DNA of 24,000 nucleotides, from NCBI GenBank assembly GCA_964245885.1, contig CAXTOX010000007.1, positions 22,480 through 46,479 on the forward strand, written 5' to 3'. The DNA is from an uncultured Chthoniobacterales bacterium. Its GTDB lineage: Bacteria; Verrucomicrobiota; Verrucomicrobiia; Chthoniobacterales; SZAS-18. A program made the position numbers and the translations under genes. Below are positions 383 through 15,924 of this stretch, piece by piece. Below the pieces are notes generated by a model. That model was not told where the DNA came from and did not search any database. It saw only the letters and a program-made list of their open reading frames with translations. Each line of letters starts with the position of its first letter. Positions within the stretch are counted from its first letter, which is position 1.

Positions 383-430
383 TCACATCATGCGAAAGAA
401 TCATGCGTTTCCGGGCAGGCAGCGAAGCTG

Positions 431-568
431 CTCGTCCCAAGGTAGGGATGGCTCTCCGAGCCGCTCCCTAATTTTTCCGGCGAGGCGCACCGTGCGCACG
501 TTGGTCATCCAAACCAAAACAGGGAGCGGCTCGGAGAGCCATCTCTACCTTGGGACGACGCCTGCGGC
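431..568. repeat. REP/BIME-like inverted repeat pair, family 1 (core GGTAGGGATGGCTCTCCGAGCCGCTCCCTA)
   Basis: Left arm 431-469 (ctcgtcccaaggtagggatggctctccgagccgctccct) is nearly the exact reverse complement of right arm 521-560. The spacer is about 50 nt. Each arm can also fold on itself (TAGGGA..GGCTC tcc GAGCC..TCCCTA). Related copies are at 8199-8354 and 5530-5560. Confidence 0.8.
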
Positions 569-5595: not shown

Positions 5596-6648
5596 CTACC
5601 TCGGTACGACGCGGACCTCCAACCCACTGGTGTTTAATGCTTCCTGCTGGAAGCGCACAGGCAGAAACGCCTCGATCACCCCGATGTTCGTCCGCGCGTG
5701 CGGCGACAAGCCGGCCGTGCGGAACGCCCCGCCACCGGCCAGCGCCATCGGCAGCAAAATCTGGTCGGTTAGGTATTCGCCCACGGGCAACCCGGCCGCG
5801 AGGTAGGCGCGAACCTGTTCCACCAGGCGGTCGGCCACGGCTTCGGCGCGCAAGCCGCGTTCACCGACCGCGCTGAAAACTTCCACGTGCGACTTCGACG
5901 CGACCTCGCCGACGAGCGCGAAACCTTGACCCCGCTCGGCCGGATGCTCGATGCATTCGCACACCGCCCGGCCCCAACGCAGACGTTTGTCCACCTGCAC
6001 GAAGGCGCGCTCCGCCACACCTGGCGGCAAACTGGCGGCATGTGCCACGACGCGGCGTGAGCCTTCCGCACCGCGGGTCAGCAGTTCCACCGGAACAAAC
6101 CGGTCGGTCGGCGTCACGTCCACCTCGATCTGACCACCTCCCGCCGGGTAGAAACCGGCGCGCATCAACGTCGCTTCCACCCGAGGGCCGAAGCGATGGA
6201 AGACCGGTAGGAAAGTGCGCGCTAGAAAATCGAAAGGAGGCGCGAGCGGATTGTGCGTGCCGCCTTCCAACGTCAAACGCGACGGTCCGGCGGCCAGCGC
6301 CAGCGCGGGCAGGATCGTTTGCAAAACGAGCGTCGTACTCCCCGCCGTGCCGACGGCAAAGCGGTAGTCGCCCGCGCGCACCACGCCAGGACGGAACACG
6401 AGTTCGCCCGCGCCGATTTCCGCGCCGTCGCACGCGGCGTCGCTGATCTCGACCGCCGCACGCACCGCCGTCAGGTGCTGCCGCAATAATCCCGGCTTCG
6501 CCCGGCCCGCGCGAATGTTCGTGATGCGGAAGGCGCGGCCCGTCACGAGCGACAGGGCGAGCGAGGTGCGCAGGATTTGTCCTCCGCCCTCGCCCGCCGC
6601 ACCGTCGATGGTGACCACCGGCGACGAACCGGCTGACCGCGTCTTCAC
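5596..6648 (-). CDS. rtcA: RNA 3'-terminal phosphate cyclase RtcA
   Basis: DGAAGEGGGQILRTSLALSLVTGRAFRITNIRAGRAKPGLLRQHLTAV matches the RtcA signature, including the RAGRAKPGL...H nucleotidylation region. A GTG start overlaps the rtcB stop (GTGA at 6648-6645), which implies translational coupling. Confidence 0.9.
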   Translation of the reverse strand: MKTRSAGSSPVVTIDGAAGEGGGQILRTSLALSLVTGRAFRITNIRAGRAKPGLLRQHLTAVRAAVEISDAACDGAEIGAGELVFRPGVVRAGDYRFAVGTAGSTTLVLQTILPALALAAGPSRLTLEGGTHNPLAPPFDFLARTFLPVFHRFGPRVEATLMRAGFYPAGGGQIEVDVTPTDRFVPVELLTRGAEGSRRVVAHAASLPPGVAERAFVQVDKRLRWGRAVCECIEHPAERGQGFALVGEVASKSHVEVFSAVGERGLRAEAVADRLVEQVRAYLAAGLPVGEYLTDQILLPMALAGGGAFRTAGLSPHARTNIGVIEAFLPVRFQQEALNTSGLEVRVVPR

Positions 6649-8156
6649 GCCGCGCCTCCCAGGCTGCCGTCGGCATCCTTGATGACGAACCGTGCCCGCA
6701 GGCGCGCGACTTCCGACGCGAGGCCGGCTGATTTCACGCTGCGCAGCACCTCGTCGAAATCCTTGTACGCCGCGGGTGCCTCATCCTTAGGATAGAACCG
6801 GCAGTTCGTCAGAATGTCGAGGTCGGTGAACTGCTGGTCCACCGTCTGCTGGTCGAACTCGCGGATGGCCGCCTTGCGCCCCTTGGCCCGGCCCGCGCCG
6901 TGGTTGACCGAATAGCAGCTCAACGCCGCGCCCGGTTCCGCGACCATGACGCTGCTACCCGCCGCCGGGTTGCCCGGCAGCAGGATGGGATGGCCCGTCT
7001 CGGCAAACGGCGTGCCGGCGAGCGCGTGGTGACCGCCCGGGTAGGCGCGGGTCGCCCCTTTGCGGTGCACCCAGGCCGGACGATTTCCCACGATCTCGCG
7101 CCGCGCGATGTTGTGGCTGATGAAGTACACCAGCCCGCCGGTCGTGCCGGGAATGATTTCCTGGAACGCTTCCAGCACGAGGGCGTTGATGAGCAGGTGG
7201 TTCACCGTGGCAAAGTTCGCGCCGAGGGCCATGTCGTCCAAGTACGCGTCGGCCTCGGGCGTGTCGAGGGGAGCATACACCAGTTCCTTGTCCTGGCCCG
7301 GCAACGGCAAACCCCAGCGCGCGAAGAACCCCTGTAACGCGTGGAACTGACCCATCGCCAGATTGTGCCCGAAGCCGCGCGAGCCGCAATGCGACAGGAA
7401 GGCGAGGCCGCCGTCGCGCAGGCCGAAACTCTCGGCCGTCGCGCGCAGGCGTTCGTCGCCGGACAGTTCCACCGCCTCGCACTCGCCGAAATGGTTGCCG
7501 CCGCCGTAGCTGCCGAGCTGCGTCATCTTTTCGTCGAACTTCGGGAAAGCGCCGCCGCTGATCAACCGGTCCAGACGCGAGCGGAGGGCGTCCGCCGTGC
7601 CGTCGTGGCCGACGTGCGACGCGTCCTCGCAATGCGCGGCCCACGCGGGCGGGATGCCCAGGGCTTCGCACACCTCGACGGACGCGCCTTCGGTCGCCAC
7701 GCGGCGGCCGAGTTCCGGCGAAACACGGCGTGACTTGCGCGCGGAACGCTGCCCACGACCGGCACCGGTTGGAGTGCGTTCGCAGATCGCGTCGATGAGC
7801 GAGCGGCGGACCGTGCGTTCCGCGACGGCGTCGGCGGGCAGGCCGAGGGCGAGCAGGCTCATGGAGCATTTGATGTCCACGCCGACCGGGCCGGGATAGA
7901 TGTGCGTGGGCGACACCATCACGCAGCCGACCGGCGCGCCGTAGCCCGCGTGGGCGTCGGGGTTGAGGACGAGGTCCGTCACGCCGGGCGCGCCGCGGGA
8001 GTTGAGAGCCTGTTCGAGGCAGCGCGCGTCGAAGCCCTGACGGATGGCTTCGGTGCCGATGACGGTGATCGGCTTGCCGTGCGACCCGCGCGCGGGCAGG
8101 AAGCCGGTGGCCTCGCCGGTGGCGGTGATGGGTGAAGGGATGGATTCAGGGTTCAT
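6645..8156 (-). CDS. rtcB: RNA ligase RtcB (3'-phosphate/5'-hydroxyl RNA-splicing ligase), long ~500 aa form
   Basis: Motifs present: NPDAHAGYG, GVDIKCSM, SYGGGNHFGE, HCGSRGFGH and VNHGAGR (the nucleophilic His motif). Confidence 0.9.
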   Translation of the reverse strand: MNPESIPSPITATGEATGFLPARGSHGKPITVIGTEAIRQGFDARCLEQALNSRGAPGVTDLVLNPDAHAGYGAPVGCVMVSPTHIYPGPVGVDIKCSMSLLALGLPADAVAERTVRRSLIDAICERTPTGAGRGQRSARKSRRVSPELGRRVATEGASVEVCEALGIPPAWAAHCEDASHVGHDGTADALRSRLDRLISGGAFPKFDEKMTQLGSYGGGNHFGECEAVELSGDERLRATAESFGLRDGGLAFLSHCGSRGFGHNLAMGQFHALQGFFARWGLPLPGQDKELVYAPLDTPEADAYLDDMALGANFATVNHLLINALVLEAFQEIIPGTTGGLVYFISHNIARREIVGNRPAWVHRKGATRAYPGGHHALAGTPFAETGHPILLPGNPAAGSSVMVAEPGAALSCYSVNHGAGRAKGRKAAIREFDQQTVDQQFTDLDILTNCRFYPKDEAPAAYKDFDEVLRSVKSAGLASEVARLRARFVIKDADGSLGGAA

Positions 8157-8198: not shown

Positions 8199-8354
8199 CC
8201 GCCGCAGGCGTCGTCAACAATGGGTAGGGATGGCTCTCCGAGCCGCTCCCTAACTTTTCTGGAAAGTGTTTCGCCGCAATGACAGTTAACCAGAGAACAA
8301 TAGGGATTGCCTCGGAGAGCCATCCCTACCCATTGTTGACGACGCCTGCGGCGG
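8199..8354. repeat. REP/BIME-like inverted repeat pair, family 1, inside the rsr-rtcB transcription unit
   Basis: Arm 8199-8252 (ccgccgcaggcgtcgtcaacaatgggtagggatggctctccgagccgctcccta) faces arm 8301-8354 (tagggattgcctcggagagccatccctacccattgttgacgacgcctgcggcgg). The spacer is about 48 nt. It has the same core as the 431-568 element. Confidence 0.8.
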
Positions 8355-8381
8355 CTCCAGGCATGATTTGAAAGGAAATTT

Positions 8382-8513
8382 ACGGCGACAAAATTGAAGT
8401 GACGTTTTACGTGCTCTACCACTGAGCTACGGTTCCGTGGAAAGTGGAACCGGCGGGACTCGAACCCGCGACCCGTCCGTGTATAGGGATGTAGTCACAT
8501 CGGCATTCGCCGC
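8382..8513 (-). ncRNA. Y RNA-like unit 4 (YrlA-type) with a circularly permuted tRNA-like module
   Basis: Minus strand. Terminal stem GCGGCGA/UCGCCGU, then AUGCC..GUGAC UACAU, paired 3' with AAAAC GUCAC. Inside are a T arm GCGGG-UUCGAGU-CCCGC, a 7-bp acceptor-like hairpin CGGUUCC/GGAACCG, and a D arm UA-GCUC-AGUGGUA-GAGC. The arm order T, acceptor, D is that reported for YrlA. Ends are approximate. Confidence 0.75.
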
Positions 8514-8543: not shown

Positions 8544-8692
8544 GACCGACGGTTCGTGATGACAAGAGATTGGTGAAACGGTTTTCGATGCTCTCCCGTT
8601 GAGCTATTCGGCCTTGCGGCCGAACCGGGACTCGAACCCGGAACCGGCGAATTAAATGTAGTTCCACGCGGCATTCGTCACGAGAGCCGGTC
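8544..8692 (-). ncRNA. Y RNA-like unit 3 (YrlA-type) with a circularly permuted tRNA-like module
   Basis: Minus strand. Terminal stem UCGUGACGA/UCAUCACGA (one C-A mismatch) plus outer GACCG/CGGUC, then AUGCC..GUGGAAC UACAU, paired 3' with AAAAC C GUUUCAC. Inside are a T arm CCGGG-UUCGAGU-CCCGG, an acceptor-like 7-bp stem UUCGGCC-GCAA-GGCCGAA (GNRA loop), and a D arm UA-GCUC-AACGGGA-GAGC. Ends are approximate. Confidence 0.75.
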
Positions 8693-8699
8693 ATTCTGC

Positions 8700-8848
8700 G
8701 AGCGTGCCGACAACCGGCGGCAGGACGTTTTACTGAGCTATCCCGTTTTGAGGCGGGACCAGATGTCGAATCTGGGACCTCCCGCGCGAGGCTTTCACCT
8801 CGCGCGGGCGCTCTTACCATGTAGTCCGTGCCTGCATTCGGCACGCTC
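8700..8848 (-). ncRNA. Y RNA-like unit 2, whose tRNA-like module appears to be opened in the D loop rather than the anticodon stem
   Basis: Minus strand. Perfect 11-bp terminal stem GAGCGUGCCGA/UCGGCACGCUC, then AUGCA..GGAC UACAU, paired 3' with AAAAC GUCC. Inside are GGUAAGAGCG, an 11-bp GC hairpin CCCGCGCGAGG-UGAAAG-CCUCGCGCGGG, AGGUC, a T arm CCAGA-UUCGACA-UCUGG, an acceptor-like hairpin UCCCG..CGGGA, and UAGCUCAGU. Confidence 0.7.
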
Positions 8849-8876: not shown

Positions 8877-8939
8877 TCGCCGACAAGTTTCTGGTGAGAC
8901 CCTCACATGGTAAAATGTAGTCCCACCGGCATTCGGCGA
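8877..8939 (-). ncRNA. Y RNA-like unit 1, a minimal form without a tRNA-like module (YrlB-like?)
   Basis: Minus strand, starting 6 nt after the rsr stop. Perfect terminal stem UCGCCGA/UCGGCGA, then AUGCC GGUGGGAC UACAU...GUCUCACC (8 bp with one G-U). It has the same 5' motif as units 2-4 but only about 63 nt. Confidence 0.55.
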
Positions 8940-8944
8940 AAGGT

Positions 8945-10501
8945 TTACAGTGCGATTTGCTCGATCTGCTCCACCCAGTGACCCGCCCGCAGGTTGCCCT
9001 GCGCGAAGGCCGCCACGATCTCGAACACCGCGTCCGAGAAGCCGCCGACGTTAAGGATGTCCCCGCGTTCGGCCGCCTGCGTGCTCGCGTACGGCTGGAT
9101 GTCCAGGCACACCAGCCGGGCGCGCGGGTTGCGGGCGCGGAACGCCGACCATTCGGCCATCGTCGCCGTGCTGCGGCCCCCACCCTGCGCGTCCATCCAG
9201 GACATGTTGTCCGAGACGACGATCACGAGGTCGCCGGTCGCGCGCATCTTGTTCAGGTGCGCGAGTGGGGCCGAGCAGTTCGTCCCGCCGCTGGGCAGCG
9301 AGGCGAGCTTCTGCGCGTTGGTCATGACGCTGTCGCGGGCGTTGAGCTGGCACGGCACGACGCTGTCGCTGAAGGCCAGCACCTCCGCCGCCGGATTGCG
9401 CCGCAGGACGCTCGCCGCCACCAACGCGGCCACGTCGATGCAGCGCGTCTTGGTCGTGGACCCGGCGCGGTGGCCGGTCACGGGCGACTGCATGGAACCG
9501 GACACATCCGGGCAAACGTACACCTGTCCGTCGATGGCCGGGACGTTCTCCGTGGCGATCTCCATCGCGTCCTGGAGCGCGCCCCGCACGGTGGCGGGCA
9601 CCGCCTGGTCGGCGGCGTGGAACGCGGTCAGGAGTTGGTAGGGAAAGCACCGGGCGCGGCGCACCTTCTGCGGGTCGCGCAGACGGTAGGCGATACGGTG
9701 GGTAAGGTCCTGATCGTCGAACACGCCGTGGCGCGCGAAGGTGTTCAGGTTCATGCGCGTGGTCTGCCACGAGGCGTTCTCCGCGATGGCCTGCCAGGCG
9801 GCGCGGTCGAGGTCGAGCGCGGTCAGCATCTGGAAAGGCACGTCGGGCACGGCCTGGATGAAGCCACCCTTGAAGGCGTCGAACTGGCGTACCAACGGCG
9901 GCAACTGCGCGGCGTCGTGCGTGCGGCCGATCAACCAGCCGTACAGCGCCTCGCGCTGAGCGTTGGCCGGGCGCGGGTGCACCATCTTGACGACATCCGC
10001 CAGCGAAGGCGACTGGCCGACCGACGCGCGGAACACGCCCTCGTCGTCGCGGCGTTCCAACCAGCGGCGCACGAGGCGGCGCGGGGCGCTGCCGAGCGAC
10101 TTGCGGCCCGTGACGCCGCTGCGGACGATCTGCACGAAGCTGCGCAACGTGCGGCCGTCGTCGATCACGCGGTCAAAGACGCGTTCCAGCATCGGTACGT
10201 CGAGCGTGGCCAGCGCGGCGCAAAGCAGGGCGGGCGTGTCCTTCATGAAGCCACGCGTGCGGCAGTAGATCGCCGTCTGCGCCACGAACGCCGCGTCGGC
10301 CTGGCCGGCCAGCGCGAGAAGGCGTTCCAACTGCGCTTCCGCGCTCGCGTAGAACGTCGTGTTCAGGCAACCGGTGACCGCATACTGCGCGAGGGCATGC
10401 CGGGGCGGCAGCGCGAAGGCCGGGCCGCCGGCCTCATTGCGGGCGTTCGTCCGGGGCAGGATCGCCCCGGCAACGGTCTGGAAGAGAGTCTTGTTGGCCA
10501 T
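8945..10501 (-). CDS. rsr: Ro60-related protein Rsr (TROVE domain plus C-terminal vWA/MIDAS)
   Basis: MANKTLFQTVAG...NEAGGPAFAL...QYAVTGCLNTTFY is a typical TROVE N-terminus. The MIDAS motif is CPDVSGSM. I prefer the ATG at 10501 over the ORF-track start at 10552, whose extra 17 aa are Arg/Thr-rich. Confidence 0.9.
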   Translation of the reverse strand: MANKTLFQTVAGAILPRTNARNEAGGPAFALPPRHALAQYAVTGCLNTTFYASAEAQLERLLALAGQADAAFVAQTAIYCRTRGFMKDTPALLCAALATLDVPMLERVFDRVIDDGRTLRSFVQIVRSGVTGRKSLGSAPRRLVRRWLERRDDEGVFRASVGQSPSLADVVKMVHPRPANAQREALYGWLIGRTHDAAQLPPLVRQFDAFKGGFIQAVPDVPFQMLTALDLDRAAWQAIAENASWQTTRMNLNTFARHGVFDDQDLTHRIAYRLRDPQKVRRARCFPYQLLTAFHAADQAVPATVRGALQDAMEIATENVPAIDGQVYVCPDVSGSMQSPVTGHRAGSTTKTRCIDVAALVAASVLRRNPAAEVLAFSDSVVPCQLNARDSVMTNAQKLASLPSGGTNCSAPLAHLNKMRATGDLVIVVSDNMSWMDAQGGGRSTATMAEWSAFRARNPRARLVCLDIQPYASTQAAERGDILNVGGFSDAVFEIVAAFAQGNLRAGHWVEQIEQIAL

Positions 10502-10583
10502 GGAAGTGCAGGTTGACGTTTGAGTCGCCCGCCGTCGGTTCGATGTTCGCACCGGACGGACGTTGAGCGATGAACCCTTCTAT

Positions 10584-10598
10584 CGCTAGGCACGTGCC
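10584..10598 (-). promoter_or_regulatory. Sigma54 (-24/-12) promoter for rsr-Y RNA-rtcBA
   Basis: The minus strand reads TGGCACGTGCCTAGC. This matches TGGCACG-N4-TTGC, with GG and GC at the canonical spacing and one mismatch (TAGC for TTGC). It lies about 85 nt upstream of the rsr ATG, next to divergent rtcR, which is a sigma54 activator. Confidence 0.7.
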
Positions 10599-10743
10599 AG
10601 CGAAGATTTCTCCAATTGCTTTCAATGCGTAAATTCCTTTCGCGCAGAGAGAAAAATTTATTTTGGCATGGCATCGTGTTAAGCAGGGCGCATTGTTGCT
10701 AGCACCAACCTAGATTTATCGCTAGCTATTTAGCGTATCCGCC

Positions 10744-12369
10744 ATGCCTACCAAGAAGCTCGTCGTCCTCGGTTTACTCGGGACCCAGTTGGATTCGGGC
10801 AAGAACGCCCACCGCTGGGAAAACTGGCGGCCCACCGTCTCGCTCTGCCAACACGACGATCTGCTCGTCGCGCGGCTCGAACTACTCCACGACCGCCGCC
10901 ACACCAGCCTCACCGAAACCGTGACGACGGACATCGCCGGGGTCTCACCGGAGACGGAAGTTCACGGGCACCTCGTGGAATTCAGCGACCCGTGGGACTT
11001 CGAAGAGGTCTACGGCTCGCTGGCGGACTTCGCGCGCGGCTATCCCTTCGACCCGGAAAAAGAAGACTACCTCGTCCACATCACCACGGGCACGCACGTC
11101 GCTCAGATCTGCCTCTTCCTGCTGACGGAGTCGCGACGTTTCCCGGGACGGCTCATCCAGACTTCCCCGCCCGCCGAACGCCAGCCCCGGCACCGCGCGG
11201 CCGCCGGGCGGTACTCCATCATCGACCTGGACCTGTCGCGCTACGACCGCATCGCGGCGCGCTTCGCCGAAGAACAGCGGGAAGCGCGCACGTTCCTCAA
11301 AAACGGCATCGCCACGCGCAACGCCGCGTTCAACCGCATGATCGAGGAGATCGAGCAGGTGGCCGTCGCGTCGCGCGAGCCGATGCTGTTCATGGGGCCG
11401 ACCGGCGCGGGGAAATCGTCGCTGGCGCGCAAGGTGTTCGAGTTGAAACGCGGCCGGCACCAGCTCGCCGGGCAGTTCGTGGAGGTCAACTGCGCGACCC
11501 TGCGCGGGGACACTGCGGTGAGCACGCTCTTCGGCCACGTGCGGGGAGCGTTCACCGGGGCGCAGCGCGACCGTCCGGGACTGCTGCGCACGGCGAACGG
11601 CGGGCTGTTGTTCCTCGACGAAATCGGTGAACTCGGCCCCGACGAACAGGCCATGCTGCTGCGCGCGCTGGAGGAAAAACGCTTCCTGCCCGTCGGCGCG
11701 GACCAGGAAGCGGTGAGTGACTTCCAGCTCATCGCCGGAACGAACTGCGACCTGTCCGGGGCGGTGGCCAAGGGCGAGTTCCGCGAGGATCTGCTGGCGC
11801 GGATCAACCTGTGGACCTTCGCACTGCCAGGGCTCGCGCAACGGTCCGAGGACATCGCGCCCAACCTCGACCACGAACTCGAACGCGCGGCGCAACGGCT
11901 CGGCCGGCGCGTCGGCATGGCCCGGGACGTGCGCGGGGCGTTCCTGGATTTCGCGCGTTCGGGCGAGGCGAAGTGGAGCGCGAACTTCCGCGACCTGAAC
12001 GCCGCCGTCACGCGCATGGCCACGCTCGCGCCGGGCGGACGGATCACGCGCGAGGTGCTGGCCAGGGAGCTTATCCGTCTGCGGGCTGGCTGGCAGAACG
12101 CGAACGGCACGGAGAGCGGCCGGGCGGGCACGGGCGACGAGGCATTGCTGGTCGAAACGCTGGGCGCGGACGGGGCAGCCTCGCTCGACTTATTCGACCG
12201 GGCGCAGCTTGCCTGCGTAGTGCGGGTTTGCCGCGACAGCAAAACCTTGAGCGAGGCCGGCCGGCGGCTCTTCGCGGTGACCCGGGGCAAACGCAAGGTT
12301 GCCAACGATGCCGACCGGCTGCGCAAATATCTCGCGCGTTTCGGCCTGGTTTGGCCGTGCGGCGTCTAG
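10744..12369 (+). CDS. rtcR: Sigma54-dependent transcriptional activator RtcR (CARF-like sensor N-domain, AAA+ core, C-terminal HTH)
   Basis: N-terminus KLVVLGLLGTQLDSGKNAHRWENWRPTVSLC is RtcR-type. Walker A is GPTGAGKS, the sigma54-contact loop is GAFTGA, and Walker B is LLFLDEIGEL. It is divergent from rsr. Confidence 0.9.
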   Translation: MPTKKLVVLGLLGTQLDSGKNAHRWENWRPTVSLCQHDDLLVARLELLHDRRHTSLTETVTTDIAGVSPETEVHGHLVEFSDPWDFEEVYGSLADFARGYPFDPEKEDYLVHITTGTHVAQICLFLLTESRRFPGRLIQTSPPAERQPRHRAAAGRYSIIDLDLSRYDRIAARFAEEQREARTFLKNGIATRNAAFNRMIEEIEQVAVASREPMLFMGPTGAGKSSLARKVFELKRGRHQLAGQFVEVNCATLRGDTAVSTLFGHVRGAFTGAQRDRPGLLRTANGGLLFLDEIGELGPDEQAMLLRALEEKRFLPVGADQEAVSDFQLIAGTNCDLSGAVAKGEFREDLLARINLWTFALPGLAQRSEDIAPNLDHELERAAQRLGRRVGMARDVRGAFLDFARSGEAKWSANFRDLNAAVTRMATLAPGGRITREVLARELIRLRAGWQNANGTESGRAGTGDEALLVETLGADGAASLDLFDRAQLACVVRVCRDSKTLSEAGRRLFAVTRGKRKVANDADRLRKYLARFGLVWPCGV

Positions 12370-15712: not shown

Positions 15713-15924
15713 CAGCCCCGGCAGGGGCGCAAGCGTTTAGCCCACGGCGCGAGCCGTGGGAAAGCCTGCGGCACCACAAAGCCCCGGCAGGAGCGCAAGA
15801 AAAGACGCAGGCCAGCGGGACCACCGAGCGGGTGTTCTTCCGCCCCTGCCGGGGCTGGGCTGGTGGGTGCTGGTTCCCCACGGCTCACGCCGTGGGCTAA
15901 ACTCTTGCGCCCCTGCCGGGGCTG
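15713..15924. repeat. REP cluster, family 3: nested inverted copies of CAGCCCCGGCAGGGGCGCAAG-N-TTTAGCCCACGGCG-N-GAGCCGTGGG
   Basis: The 48-nt unit at 15713-15760 and its reverse complement at 15877-15924 differ at 2 positions. Partial inverted copies lie at 15780-15799 and 15841-15858. Each full unit holds the hairpin CCCACGGC-nnnn-GCCGTGGG. The cluster sits between convergent genes. Confidence 0.8.

What the first reader, a model, noticed from the sequence alone, without database searches (positions are those of the whole stretch)
8700..8848. Unit 2 looks like a tRNA mimic opened in the D loop instead of the anticodon stem
Unit 2 contains UAGCUCAGU near its 3' side and GGUAAGAGCG near its 5' side. 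These are the two halves of a textbook D arm (UAGCUCAGU-GGUA-GAGC), separated by the Y RNA stem. After GAGCG come an 11-bp GC hairpin with a 6-nt loop in the position of the anticodon arm, a canonical-looking variable loop AGGUC, a T arm (CCAGA-UUCGACA-UCUGG) and a closed acceptor-like hairpin. So the RNA termini seem to exit through the D loop, whereas units 3 and 4 exit through the anticodon stem. The same UACAU/AAAAC internal loop flanks the exit point in both topologies. I am not aware of two different permutation break points of a tRNA-like fold side by side in one operon having been described. This would imply independent or remodelled origins of the units.
Basis: inference. Interest (0 to 1): 0.75.

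Follow-up and report, generated by a model that had tools for sequence, protein, structure and literature searches.

The report
tRNA-like Y RNA opened at D-loop
Next to a bacterial Ro60 (Rsr) gene lies a small RNA whose middle folds like a complete transfer RNA with its ends leaving through the D loop; this conserved, apparently undescribed variant sits beside the known Y RNAs that open at the anticodon stem.

Summary
On the minus strand, 8848-8700 is unit 2 of a four-unit Y RNA array in an rtcR | rsr-Y RNAs-rtcB-rtcA operon of a Chthoniobacterales-like verrucomicrobium.

Unit 2 reads: Y stem, CUACAU, G18G19UA(A), GAGC, G26, 11-bp hairpin, AGGUC, T arm, closed 5-bp acceptor hairpin, U8A9, GCUC, A14G15U16, AAAAC, Y stem. 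Every junction length matches tRNA.

A covariance model found 51 such units in 47 Rsr-linked loci from Verrucomicrobiota, Acidobacteriota and metagenomes. In this set:
- 95.5% of cells in the 43 modelled base pairs are paired.
- The split D stem is paired in every sequence, with compensatory changes (GCGC/GCGC, GCUG/CAGC).
- The Levitt pair 15-48 covaries (35 G-C, 7 A-U).
- Base 9 tracks pair 12-23.

Eight further units split a tRNA-Leu-type D arm (UGGCGGAA / GGUAGACGC) at the same point. Canonical YrlA units share the array in 28 of 29 loci.

Rfam 15 has no matching family, ARAGORN calls no tRNA, and I found no description in the literature I could search. I rate it a new variant of a known kind (a tRNA-mimicking bacterial Y RNA). 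Its function is inferred, not shown.

The parts
8700..8848 (-). Unit 2: the whole split-D (D-loop-permuted) tRNA-like Y RNA
   Evidence: Scores 175.9 bits with CM R1 and 123.5 bits with R2. Fold z = -5.96.
8838..8848 (-). Y stem, 5' strand (GAGCGUGCCGA). It overlaps the GNCGAAN0-1G Rsr-binding motif (GCCGAAUG, 8841-8834).
   Evidence: Pairs perfectly with 8700-8710. 9 of the 11 pairs covary across homologues. The motif is defined in PMC4201824.
8700..8710 (-). Y stem, 3' strand (UCGGCACGCUC)
8824..8832 (-). Upper Y helix, 5' strand (GGCA-C-GGAC). Pairs with GUCC-UGCC at 8726-8719.
   Evidence: Helix 2: 95.2% of cells paired, and 6 of 8 pairs have double changes.
8719..8726 (-). Upper Y helix, 3' strand (GUCCUGCC)
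8819..8823 (-). 5' linker UACAU, between the Y helix and G18
   Evidence: Read from the sequence. Conserved as UACA(U) in all 49 aligned units.
8814..8818 (-). 3' part of the D loop: G18 G19 U20 A A21
   Evidence: GG is present in 47 of the 49 aligned units; L171:714-857 has GAA instead and L001:6831-6946 carries an extra U before GG.
8810..8813 (-). D stem, 3' strand GAGC (positions 22-25)
   Evidence: Pairs with 8735-8738. 100% paired across 48 sequences, with compensatory variants. Predicted by RNAalifold.
8781..8808 (-). Anticodon-arm-position hairpin: 11 bp plus UGAAAG. G26 lies at 8809.
   Evidence: All 10 modelled pairs covary. Loops are mostly tetraloops, and only 2 of 48 have 7 nt.
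8776..8780 (-). Variable loop AGGUC (positions 44-48). C48 is the partner of G15.
   Evidence: 15-48 covaries: 35 G-C and 7 A-U.
8759..8775 (-). T arm: CCAGA UUCGACA UCUGG
   Evidence: All 5 pairs covary and 99.6% of cells are paired. T loop UUCRAnn is conserved.
8741..8758 (-). Closed acceptor-like hairpin: UCCCG CCUCAAAA CGGGA. It starts directly after the T stem.
   Evidence: All 5 pairs covary. The first pair is U-A in 22 and C-G in 20.
8732..8740 (-). U8 A9, D stem 5' strand GCUC (8738-8735), then A14 G15 U16
8727..8731 (-). 3' linker AAAAC, between U16 and the Y helix
   Evidence: Read from the sequence. An A-rich linker is present in nearly all of the 49 aligned units; L001:6831-6946 has none and a few are not A-rich.
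8877..8939 (-). Unit 1: a short YrlB-like Y RNA without a tRNA-like module
   Evidence: Fold. It has the same 5' motif as the other units. The Rfam YrlB hit is weak (15.3 bits, not significant).
8553..8681 (-). Unit 3: YrlA-type Y RNA, opened at the anticodon stem
   Evidence: Rfam YrlA 53.1 bits, E 5.8e-11
8379..8513 (-). Unit 4: YrlA-type Y RNA
   Evidence: Rfam YrlA 64.8 bits, E 2.5e-14
8945..10501 (-). rsr (Ro60 orthologue). The likely start is the ATG at 10501.
   Evidence: Pfam vWA_Ro60 and TROVE. 518-aa homologues begin MANK.
6645..8156 (-). rtcB
   Evidence: Pfam RtcB, E 8e-94
5596..6648 (-). rtcA
   Evidence: Pfam RTC, E 1.6e-79
10744..12369 (+). rtcR, the divergently transcribed sigma54 activator
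   Evidence: Pfam RtcR plus Sigma54_activat

Best explanation
Unit 2 is a genuine Rsr-associated Y RNA of a distinct, conserved subclass.

**Architecture.** Its 5' and 3' ends form the usual Ro60-binding stem. The other module is a complete tRNA-type cloverleaf that is circularly permuted inside the D loop. The chain enters at G18-G19 and runs through the D-stem 3' strand, G26, an anticodon-position hairpin, the variable loop AGGUC, the T arm and a loop-closed acceptor stem. It continues through U8-A9 and the D-stem 5' strand, and leaves after A14-G15-U16. The D stem therefore forms between two distant segments and closes a four-way junction. G18/G19 can still dock on the T loop to build the tRNA elbow.

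**Expression (inferred).** The unit is most likely co-transcribed with rsr and rtcBA from an RtcR/sigma54 promoter and then processed out, as in Salmonella rsr-yrlBA-rtcBA.

**Function (inferred).** Like YrlA, it presents an L-shaped tRNA body, above all the elbow, to a tRNA-binding partner or as a decoy. Here Rsr is attached at the elbow side rather than at the end of the anticodon arm. The anticodon hairpin is a nuclease-resistant, tetraloop-type cap.

**Origin (inferred).** The most economical route is permutation by duplication. A stretch running from the mid D loop of one tRNA copy to the mid D loop of the next copy in tandem would be captured between Y-stem strands. YrlA would correspond to a stretch from anticodon loop to anticodon loop.
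For: **Shown**
- The sequence elements and tRNA-exact junction lengths are present: 0 nt between T and acceptor stems, 2 nt (U8, N9), 1 nt (N26), and a 4-5 nt variable loop.
- Operon context is rtcR | rsr | Y units | rtcB | rtcA.
- CM R1/R2 find 51 such units in the window, 19 of 80 Rsr loci from genomes, and 27 metagenome contigs. The metagenome contigs were retrieved with a pattern that fixes only GAAUGC..ACUACA..GGUA.
- In those contigs Rsr lies upstream on the same strand in 19 of 26. Five others are too short to tell.
- 95.5% of cells are paired against 70.9% in shuffles and <=49.5% when partners are slid. 37 of 43 pairs carry double changes.
- The split D stem is 100% paired. Variants are GCGC/GCGC (4 sequences), GCUG/CAGC (1) and GCUU/GAGC wobble (1).
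- RNAalifold recovers the split stem on its own.
- The Levitt pair covaries, p = 6e-7. G9 accompanies G12-C23.
- Eight class-II-like units split UGGCGGAA / GGUAGACGC at the same place and carry a long variable hairpin. Their unconstrained MFE contains the split D stem in 6 of 7.
- L001 has a mini version without the anticodon arm that keeps the split D stem, T arm and acceptor hairpin.
- There is no sigma70 promoter or terminator inside the array. A sigma54-like TGGCAC-N5-TAGC lies upstream of rsr.

**From the literature**
- YrlA folds as an L-shaped tRNA, and its elbow and D/T stems are the conserved part (10.1101/312249).
- The operon is induced by damaged tRNA through RtcR, and YrlA has been proposed as a nuclease decoy (PMC7790460).
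Against: - For the window sequence alone, the D stem is not in the MFE. The MFE is -81.5 kcal/mol, the best D-stem-containing fold is -80.4, and the pair probability is 0.14.
- The D stem is nearly invariant. Its covariation rests on perhaps 2-3 independent events, plus the class-II group.
- The counted alignment was fitted to the model.
- The unit is not maintained everywhere. Chthoniobacter flavus Ellin428 has a decayed orthologue without GG and without the 3' UAGCUCAG half. L006 keeps only a Y-stem remnant.
- There are no expression, end-mapping, probing or Rsr-binding data.
- The partner and physiological role are unknown even for YrlA.
Confidence: 0.8

Rival explanations
1. The two D-arm-like strings do not pair. 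Unit 2 would then be just a Y stem carrying three independent hairpins, and the D-like motifs would be leftovers or protein-binding sites.
For: The single-sequence MFE pairs GGU and GA differently, and gives the D stem a probability of only 0.14. GCUC/GAGC is almost invariant, so covariation is sparse.
Against: - The D stem is 100% paired in 48 sequences, with both-sided changes at two positions.
- RNAalifold predicts the stem.
- The stem is in the MFE of the class-II-like units.
- The 15-48 pair and the 9-12-23 triple covary. These make sense only in a folded tRNA core.
- Junction lengths are exactly those of tRNA.
Confidence: 0.06
2. It is a circularly permuted tRNA gene. Its transcript would be cut and religated (for example by the RtcB encoded downstream) and opened at the acceptor stem to give a working tRNA, as in Cyanidioschyzon merolae.
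For: Permuted tRNA genes with a D-loop junction (20/21) exist in C. merolae (PMC3978253). An RNA ligase gene lies in the same operon.
Against: - The anticodon-position loop has 7 nt in only 2 of 48 units and is usually a GNRA or UUCG tetraloop.
- Acceptor hairpins are mostly 5-6 bp closed by tetraloops.
- ARAGORN finds no tRNA.
- A mini version lacks the anticodon arm altogether.
- The flanks are a covarying Ro60-type Y stem, not a bulge-helix-bulge motif.
Confidence: 0.03
3. It is a decaying, non-functional rearrangement product of a YrlA unit that happens to survive in this lineage.
For: The orthologue is degenerate in C. flavus Ellin428 and lost in L006. Arrays vary widely in unit number and type.
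Against: - The architecture is conserved across two phyla, with compensatory changes in every helix.
- CM scores of split-D units are separated from those of all other Y RNAs.
- Parallel class-I-like and class-II-like versions exist, sometimes in the same array.
Confidence: 0.06
4. It is an ordinary YrlA that the first reader mis-threaded, so a contiguous D arm and an anticodon-stem exit are actually present.
For: It shares the Y stem, CUACAU/AAAAC, the T arm and the D-arm nucleotides with units 3 and 4.
Against: - Rfam YrlA hits units 3 and 4 but not unit 2, even at E<=10.
- Within 8700-8848 the only GAGC upstream of the T arm and the only GCUC downstream of the acceptor hairpin are separated by about 70 nt.
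- No contiguous D hairpin can be drawn.
Confidence: 0.01

Closest known systems
YrlA (Rfam RF02553), the tRNA-like bacterial Y RNA; crystal structure 6CU1
   Same: - Encoded just downstream of rsr in an rtcR-controlled rsr-Y-rtcBA operon.
- Ro60-type terminal stem with GNCGAA motif.
- Effector module made of a T arm, a loop-closed acceptor stem and a D arm with the same GCUC/GAGC stem.
- Levitt-pair covariation.
- Also described as a circularly permuted tRNA.
   Different: - YrlA is opened at the anticodon stem, so it has no anticodon hairpin and a contiguous D hairpin.
- Unit 2 is opened between D-loop positions 16/17 and 18. It has a closed anticodon-position hairpin and a canonical 5-nt variable loop, and its D stem is formed in trans between the 5' and 3' parts.
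- It is not detected by the YrlA model.
Deinococcus radiodurans Yrn1
   Same: Chen et al. 2014 model it with D-loop features 5' of an 'anticodon arm' (6-nt loop) and a T arm. That is the same 5'-to-3' order as in unit 2.
   Different: - Yrn1 has no full D arm, no variable loop and no closed acceptor hairpin.
- The Y stem takes the acceptor position.
- Its tRNA likeness is uncertain.
- I could not obtain its sequence to compare it directly.
Circularly permuted tRNA genes of Cyanidioschyzon merolae, type I (junction 20/21 in the D loop)
   Same: A natural tRNA-type sequence whose termini lie in the D loop (PMC3978253).
   Different: - Those are precursors that are circularised at a bulge-helix-bulge motif and matured into normal, decoding tRNAs.
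- Unit 2 has no anticodon loop and a closed, short acceptor stem, and it is embedded in a Y RNA.
Two-piece (permuted) tmRNA and other natural permuted ncRNAs
   Same: The same fold is reached with a different backbone connectivity within one RNA family.
   Different: - Those belong to different RNA families.
- In tmRNA the variants replace each other between lineages. Here two break points coexist in one operon.

Membership tests
Bacterial Y RNA (Rsr/Ro60-associated ncRNA) | Encoded next to rsr on the same strand | tested here: met
   Unit 2 lies about 100 nt downstream of rsr on the minus strand. In independently retrieved metagenome contigs, Rsr is upstream on the same strand in 19 of 26.
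Bacterial Y RNA (Rsr/Ro60-associated ncRNA) | Terminal stem formed by the 5' and 3' ends, carrying GNCGAAN0-1G near the 5' end | tested here: met
   GCCGAAUG lies at 8841-8834. There is an 11-bp stem plus an 8-bp upper helix, and 15 of the 19 pairs have double changes.
Bacterial Y RNA (Rsr/Ro60-associated ncRNA) | Bound and stabilised by Rsr | not testable with these tools
   Needs immunoprecipitation or EMSA.
YrlA (RF02553) | Match to the family covariance model. The model's order is T arm, closed acceptor stem, contiguous D hairpin, exit via the anticodon stem. | tested here: not met
   Unit 2 gives no YrlA hit at E<=10. Units 3 and 4 score 53.1 and 64.8 bits.
YrlA (RF02553) | tRNA-like T arm, G18G19, D stem and Levitt pair able to form the elbow and L shape | tested here: met
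   All are present and conserved or covarying, but in permuted order.
tRNA / permuted tRNA gene | 7-nt anticodon loop on a 5-bp stem | tested here: not met
   The window unit has an 11-bp stem with a 6-nt loop. Only 2 of 48 homologues have a 7-nt loop, and 28 have tetraloops.
tRNA / permuted tRNA gene | 7-bp acceptor stem that can be opened to give 5' and 3'-CCA ends | tested here: not met
   The window unit has a 5-bp stem closed by 8 nt. Homologues mostly have 5-6 bp stems with tetraloops. ARAGORN finds 0 genes.
tRNA fold (cloverleaf core) | Four helices with canonical junction lengths, plus the 15-48, 18/19-T-loop and 9-12-23 tertiary partners | tested here: met
   Junction lengths and covariation support this. 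The 3D fold itself was not tested.
Yrn1-type Y RNA | Sequence or structure similarity to D. radiodurans Yrn1 | not tested
Only the published description was compared.

The most novel reading that the evidence does not exclude
Rsr operons in Verrucomicrobiota and Acidobacteriota encode a panel of tRNA decoys or tethers, not one tRNA mimic. The units mimic class I and class II (tRNA-Leu-like) tRNAs and use at least two backbone permutations (anticodon-stem exit and D-loop exit). Rsr would therefore be held at different places on the tRNA body. Each unit type would serve a different tRNA-binding partner, for example anticodon nucleases against elbow-binding or repair enzymes. An even more speculative version is that the split-D units are cut at the UACAU/AAAAC linkers and closed by the co-encoded RtcB ligase.
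Probability: 0.15. Interest if true: 0.85.

Novelty: new variant of a known kind. Interest (0 to 1): 0.64.

Why it matters
Bacterial Y RNAs are the best-known non-viral tRNA mimics, but what their tRNA-like module binds is still unknown.

- **A natural experiment on what matters.** A second, conserved circular permutation of the same fold sits in the same operon as YrlA. The D stem, T arm, G18/G19 elbow and acceptor stack are kept. The anticodon arm is dispensable: it is a capped hairpin in most units and absent in a mini version. So the point where Rsr attaches can move. This narrows the search for the partner to elbow or core binders.
- **Family definition.** The current Y RNA family definitions (Rfam YrlA and YrlB) miss a sizeable class. 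Split-D units occur in 19 of the 80 Rsr loci sampled.
- **Wider relevance.** The split tRNA-Leu-type units suggest repeated recruitment or remodelling of tRNA sequences into Y RNAs. The set also offers clean test cases for RNA folding and permutation studies and for topology-independent RNA homology search.

Tried and rejected
- **Known families.** ARAGORN on the window gave no tRNA or tmRNA. Rfam at gathering and at E<=10 gave nothing for unit 2 except a chance Thermales-rpoB hit of 19.5 bits.
- **Single-sequence MFE.** It recovers the Y stem and the three hairpins but not the D stem. It was therefore not decisive on its own.
- **Alignment.** MAFFT alignments of distant members misaligned the variable hairpins.
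- **Unit typing by regex.** The first regex classification of unit types was crude and mis-typed several units. I replaced it with CM hits and a stricter YrlA regex.
- **Viral contigs.** The retrieval pattern gave 45 matches and 0 CM hits. This doubles as a chance control.
- **Literature.** Supplement look-up for Chen et al. 2014 held no files. Burroughs and Aravind 2016 is not in the library. The 2025 phage Ro60 paper has nothing on tRNA-like Y RNAs.
- **Cultured carrier.** C. flavus Ellin428 has only a decayed unit 2.
- **Rejected readings.** These were a permuted tRNA gene, a mis-threaded YrlA, and pairing of the D halves with the GAGC/GCUC at the Y-stem termini. The last exists only in the Chthoniobacterales subgroup and is not conserved.

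Full report
**Context**

The finding lies on the minus strand of a GC-rich window. Pfam scans identify rtcR (10744-12369, +), rsr/Ro60 (ORF 10552-8945, -), rtcB (8156-6645, -) and rtcA (6648-5596, -). This is the rsr-Y RNA-rtcBA RNA-repair operon known from Salmonella (PMC7790460).

Between rsr and rtcB lie four units with the Y RNA 5' motif:
- Unit 1 (about 8939-8877) is a short YrlB-like hairpin.
- Unit 2 (8848-8700) is the finding.
- Units 3 (8681-8553) and 4 (8513-8379) match Rfam YrlA at 53.1 and 64.8 bits. Both are significant but below the gathering score of 69.

Rsr homologues place the organism near Chthoniobacterales (Verrucomicrobiota). Identity is 91% to a lichen MAG and 75% to Chthoniobacter flavus.

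**Observation**

Read 5' to 3' on the RNA, the unit is:
- Y stem GAGCGUGCCGA, containing the GNCGAAN0-1G motif
- upper helix GGCA-C-GGAC
- UACAU
- GGUAA-GAGC-G
- an 11-bp hairpin with loop UGAAAG
- AGGUC
- CCAGA-UUCGACA-UCUGG
- UCCCG-CCUCAAAA-CGGGA
- UA-GCUC-AGU
- AAAAC
- GUCC-UGCC, then the Y stem 3' strand

In tRNA numbering this is G18 G19 U20 A21, D stem 22-25, G26, anticodon arm, 44-48, T arm, acceptor 66-72 / 1-7 closed by a loop, U8 A9, D stem 10-13, and A14 G15 U16. Spacer lengths at every junction are exactly those of tRNA.

The unit folds much better than shuffles (z = -5.96). ARAGORN sees no tRNA. No Rfam family matches unit 2 even at E<=10.

**Is the split D stem real?**

For the single sequence the evidence is neutral. 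The MFE (-81.5 kcal/mol) lacks the D stem, the best fold containing it is -80.4, and its ensemble probability is 0.14. Comparative data decide the question.

*Collecting homologues.* An Rsr-guided scan of one genome per species gave 80 loci. By eye and regex, the same arrangement appeared in several Verrucomicrobiota and Acidobacteriota. I built a covariance model from the window unit and three close relatives, with the proposed structure. It found full-length matches in 19 of the 80 loci.

A metagenome scan used a pattern that fixes only GAAUGC, ACUACA and GGUA and leaves the D stem free. It added units in 27 contigs. In viral contigs the same pattern gave 45 matches and no model hit, which serves as a chance control.

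A second model built from 49 units separates them cleanly from every other Y RNA in the 80 loci: 74.5-135 bits against <=62.8.

*Linkage to Rsr.* Where the pattern-retrieved contigs are long enough, Rsr lies upstream on the same strand in 19 of 26. One contig is divergent, one shows only rtcB, and five are too short. The link to Rsr therefore does not depend on how the loci were found.

*Pair counts.* On the 49-unit alignment (48 distinct sequences):
- 95.5% of pair cells are standard pairs, against 70.9% after shuffling and at most 49.5% when partners are slid.
- 37 of 43 pairs show changes on both sides.
- The long-range D stem is paired in every sequence.
- Pair 12-23 is U-A in 42, G-C in 4 (GGUAGCGC ... 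UGGCGCAG), and another standard pair in 1.
- Pair 13-22 is C-G in 44, G-C in 1 (L060, GGUAACAGC ... UAGCUGA) and U-G in 1.
- RNAalifold run on the same alignment predicts these four pairs itself.

*Tertiary signatures of a folded tRNA core.* The Levitt pair 15-48 is G-C in 35 units and A-U in 7. All seven A15 units have U48 (Fisher p = 6e-7). All four G12-C23 units have G9 instead of A9, the known 9-12-23 triple pattern. The first acceptor pair abuts the T stem and switches between U-A (22) and C-G (20).

*Caveats.* The alignment was fitted to the model. The D-stem variants represent few independent events.

**A second set of split units**

Model R2 also picked up weaker hits (58-66 bits) that turned out to be a class-II-like version. 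These read ACUACA-GGUAGACGC, an anticodon-position hairpin, a long variable hairpin, T arm, closed acceptor hairpin, then U-GGCGG-AA. UGGCGGAA..GGUAGACGC is, from my own knowledge of E. coli tRNA-Leu, the D arm of class II tRNAs: three pairs plus G13.A22.

This D arm is cut at the same point. In 6 of 7 units the unconstrained MFE contains the split D stem closing a five-way junction. Several arrays carry both a class-I-like and a class-II-like split unit.

L001 also has a mini unit in which G26 runs straight into the T arm, with no anticodon arm and no variable loop. It keeps the split D stem, T arm and acceptor hairpin.

Together these observations make a chance or vestigial reading very unlikely. 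They show that the conserved core is the D stem, elbow, T arm and acceptor stack.

**What it is not**

- It is not a permuted tRNA gene. The anticodon-position loop has 7 nt in only 2 of 48 units and is a tetraloop in 28. The acceptor hairpins are mostly 5-6 bp closed by tetraloops.
- It is not a mis-read YrlA. No contiguous D hairpin exists, and the YrlA model does not match.

**Co-occurrence**

In 28 of 29 loci with enough flanking sequence, the array that holds a split-D unit also holds at least one canonical YrlA-type unit. The usual order is YrlB-like, split-D, YrlA, YrlA, as in the window. Two break points side by side is therefore the norm in these lineages.

**Mechanism**

*Shown:* the architecture, its conservation and its genomic linkage.

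*Inferred:*
- The units are co-transcribed from the RtcR/sigma54 promoter. A TGGCAC-N5-TAGC lies at 10599-10585, and there is no sigma70 promoter or terminator in the array. They would then be processed.
- The terminal stem binds Rsr.
- The permuted cloverleaf folds into an L shape that recruits or sequesters a tRNA-binding factor, as proposed for YrlA.
- Because the chain leaves between positions 16/17 and 18, Rsr would sit beside the elbow rather than at the end of the anticodon arm.
- A capped anticodon-type helix is now exposed.

The simplest origin is permutation by duplication from tandem tRNA copies. Tandem tRNA genes do occur near rsr in some loci.

**Against universality**

C. flavus Ellin428 has a decayed orthologue lacking GG and the 3' half. 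L006 retains only a stem remnant.

**Comparison with what is known**

Chen et al. 2014 and Wang et al. 2018 describe two types. YrlA is described as a 'circularly permuted tRNA with a closed acceptor stem', opened at the anticodon stem. Yrn1 is less tRNA-like, with the opposite order of arms.

Neither paper mentions a D-loop break, and neither do later papers I could search. The library is incomplete, so prior description cannot be fully excluded.

The nearest precedent for a D-loop junction is the type I permuted tRNA gene of C. merolae, which matures into a normal tRNA.

**Verdict**

This is a new variant of a known kind: a D-loop-permuted, tRNA-like bacterial Y RNA subclass. Confidence in the architecture is about 0.8. 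Confidence in the proposed function is much lower.

Noticed in passing
L137 766-914(-), L125 750-896, L163 5887-6030, L155 12935-13085, L103 6130-6280, L099 4224-4378, L105 2272-2411, L136 ~402-568(-): These are class-II (tRNA-Leu-like) split-D Y RNA units. They read GGUAGACGC ... long variable hairpin ... UGGCGGAA and are broken at the same D-loop point. The split D stem appears in the unconstrained MFE of 6 of 7. Some arrays hold both class-I-like and class-II-like split units.
   Followed up: partly
L001 6831-6946: A mini split-D unit. GGCAGAGC-G runs directly into the T arm, with no anticodon arm or variable loop, followed by the acceptor hairpin and UAGCUCAGU. It is an extra unit next to the full-size one in the closest relative.
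   Followed up: partly
many loci, e.g. L035 6838, L021 2143, L043 6785, L009 2359: A widespread further Y RNA type: ...GAGUACA-U-GG(U/C)A(A), an optional small hairpin, T arm, hairpin, A-ACUCUC... It keeps GG plus the T arm in the same order as the split-D units but has no D stem. It may be a reduced relative, possibly akin to Yrn1.
   Followed up: no
window 8199-8354: An inverted repeat with 54-nt arms (94% complementary) lies between unit 4 and rtcB. As RNA it forms a -123.9 kcal/mol hairpin (z = -15.8). It is unique in the window and absent from 200 related loci, and the closest relatives go straight from unit 4 to rtcB. C. flavus (L246 ~6140-6225) has an unrelated inverted repeat at the same position.
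   Followed up: partly
window 10585-10599 (-) and 10499-10501 (-): A sigma54-type promoter-like element, TGGCACGTGCCTAGC, lies upstream of rsr. The likely true rsr start is the ATG at 10501 (MANK..., matching 518-aa homologues), not the GTG at 10552.
   Followed up: partly
window 15714-15760 (-) and 15877-15923 (+): Two copies of the Acido-Lenti-1 RNA motif (Rfam RF01687, 39.2 and 48.2 bits, both above gathering) lie on opposite strands about 120 nt apart.
   Followed up: no
L246 5704-5823 (Chthoniobacter flavus Ellin428) and L006 ~6667-6685: The unit-2 orthologue is decayed in the cultured C. flavus (UGAUAAAGC in place of GGUAGAGC, and the 3' UAGCUCAG half is missing). In L006 it is reduced to a bare stem remnant, gagcgtcttaaacacgctc.
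   Followed up: yes
L139 378-513(-): A split-D unit with an aberrant D region (GGUAGAGGUG ... AUGGCCGAA). rsr lies on the opposite strand (divergent), unlike in all the other contigs.
   Followed up: no
L040, L043, L053, L072, L077, L079 (about 1-3 kb upstream of rsr): Tandem tRNA genes lie close to rsr in Pyrinomonadaceae loci. This is relevant to a permutation-by-duplication origin of tRNA-like Y RNA modules.
   Followed up: no
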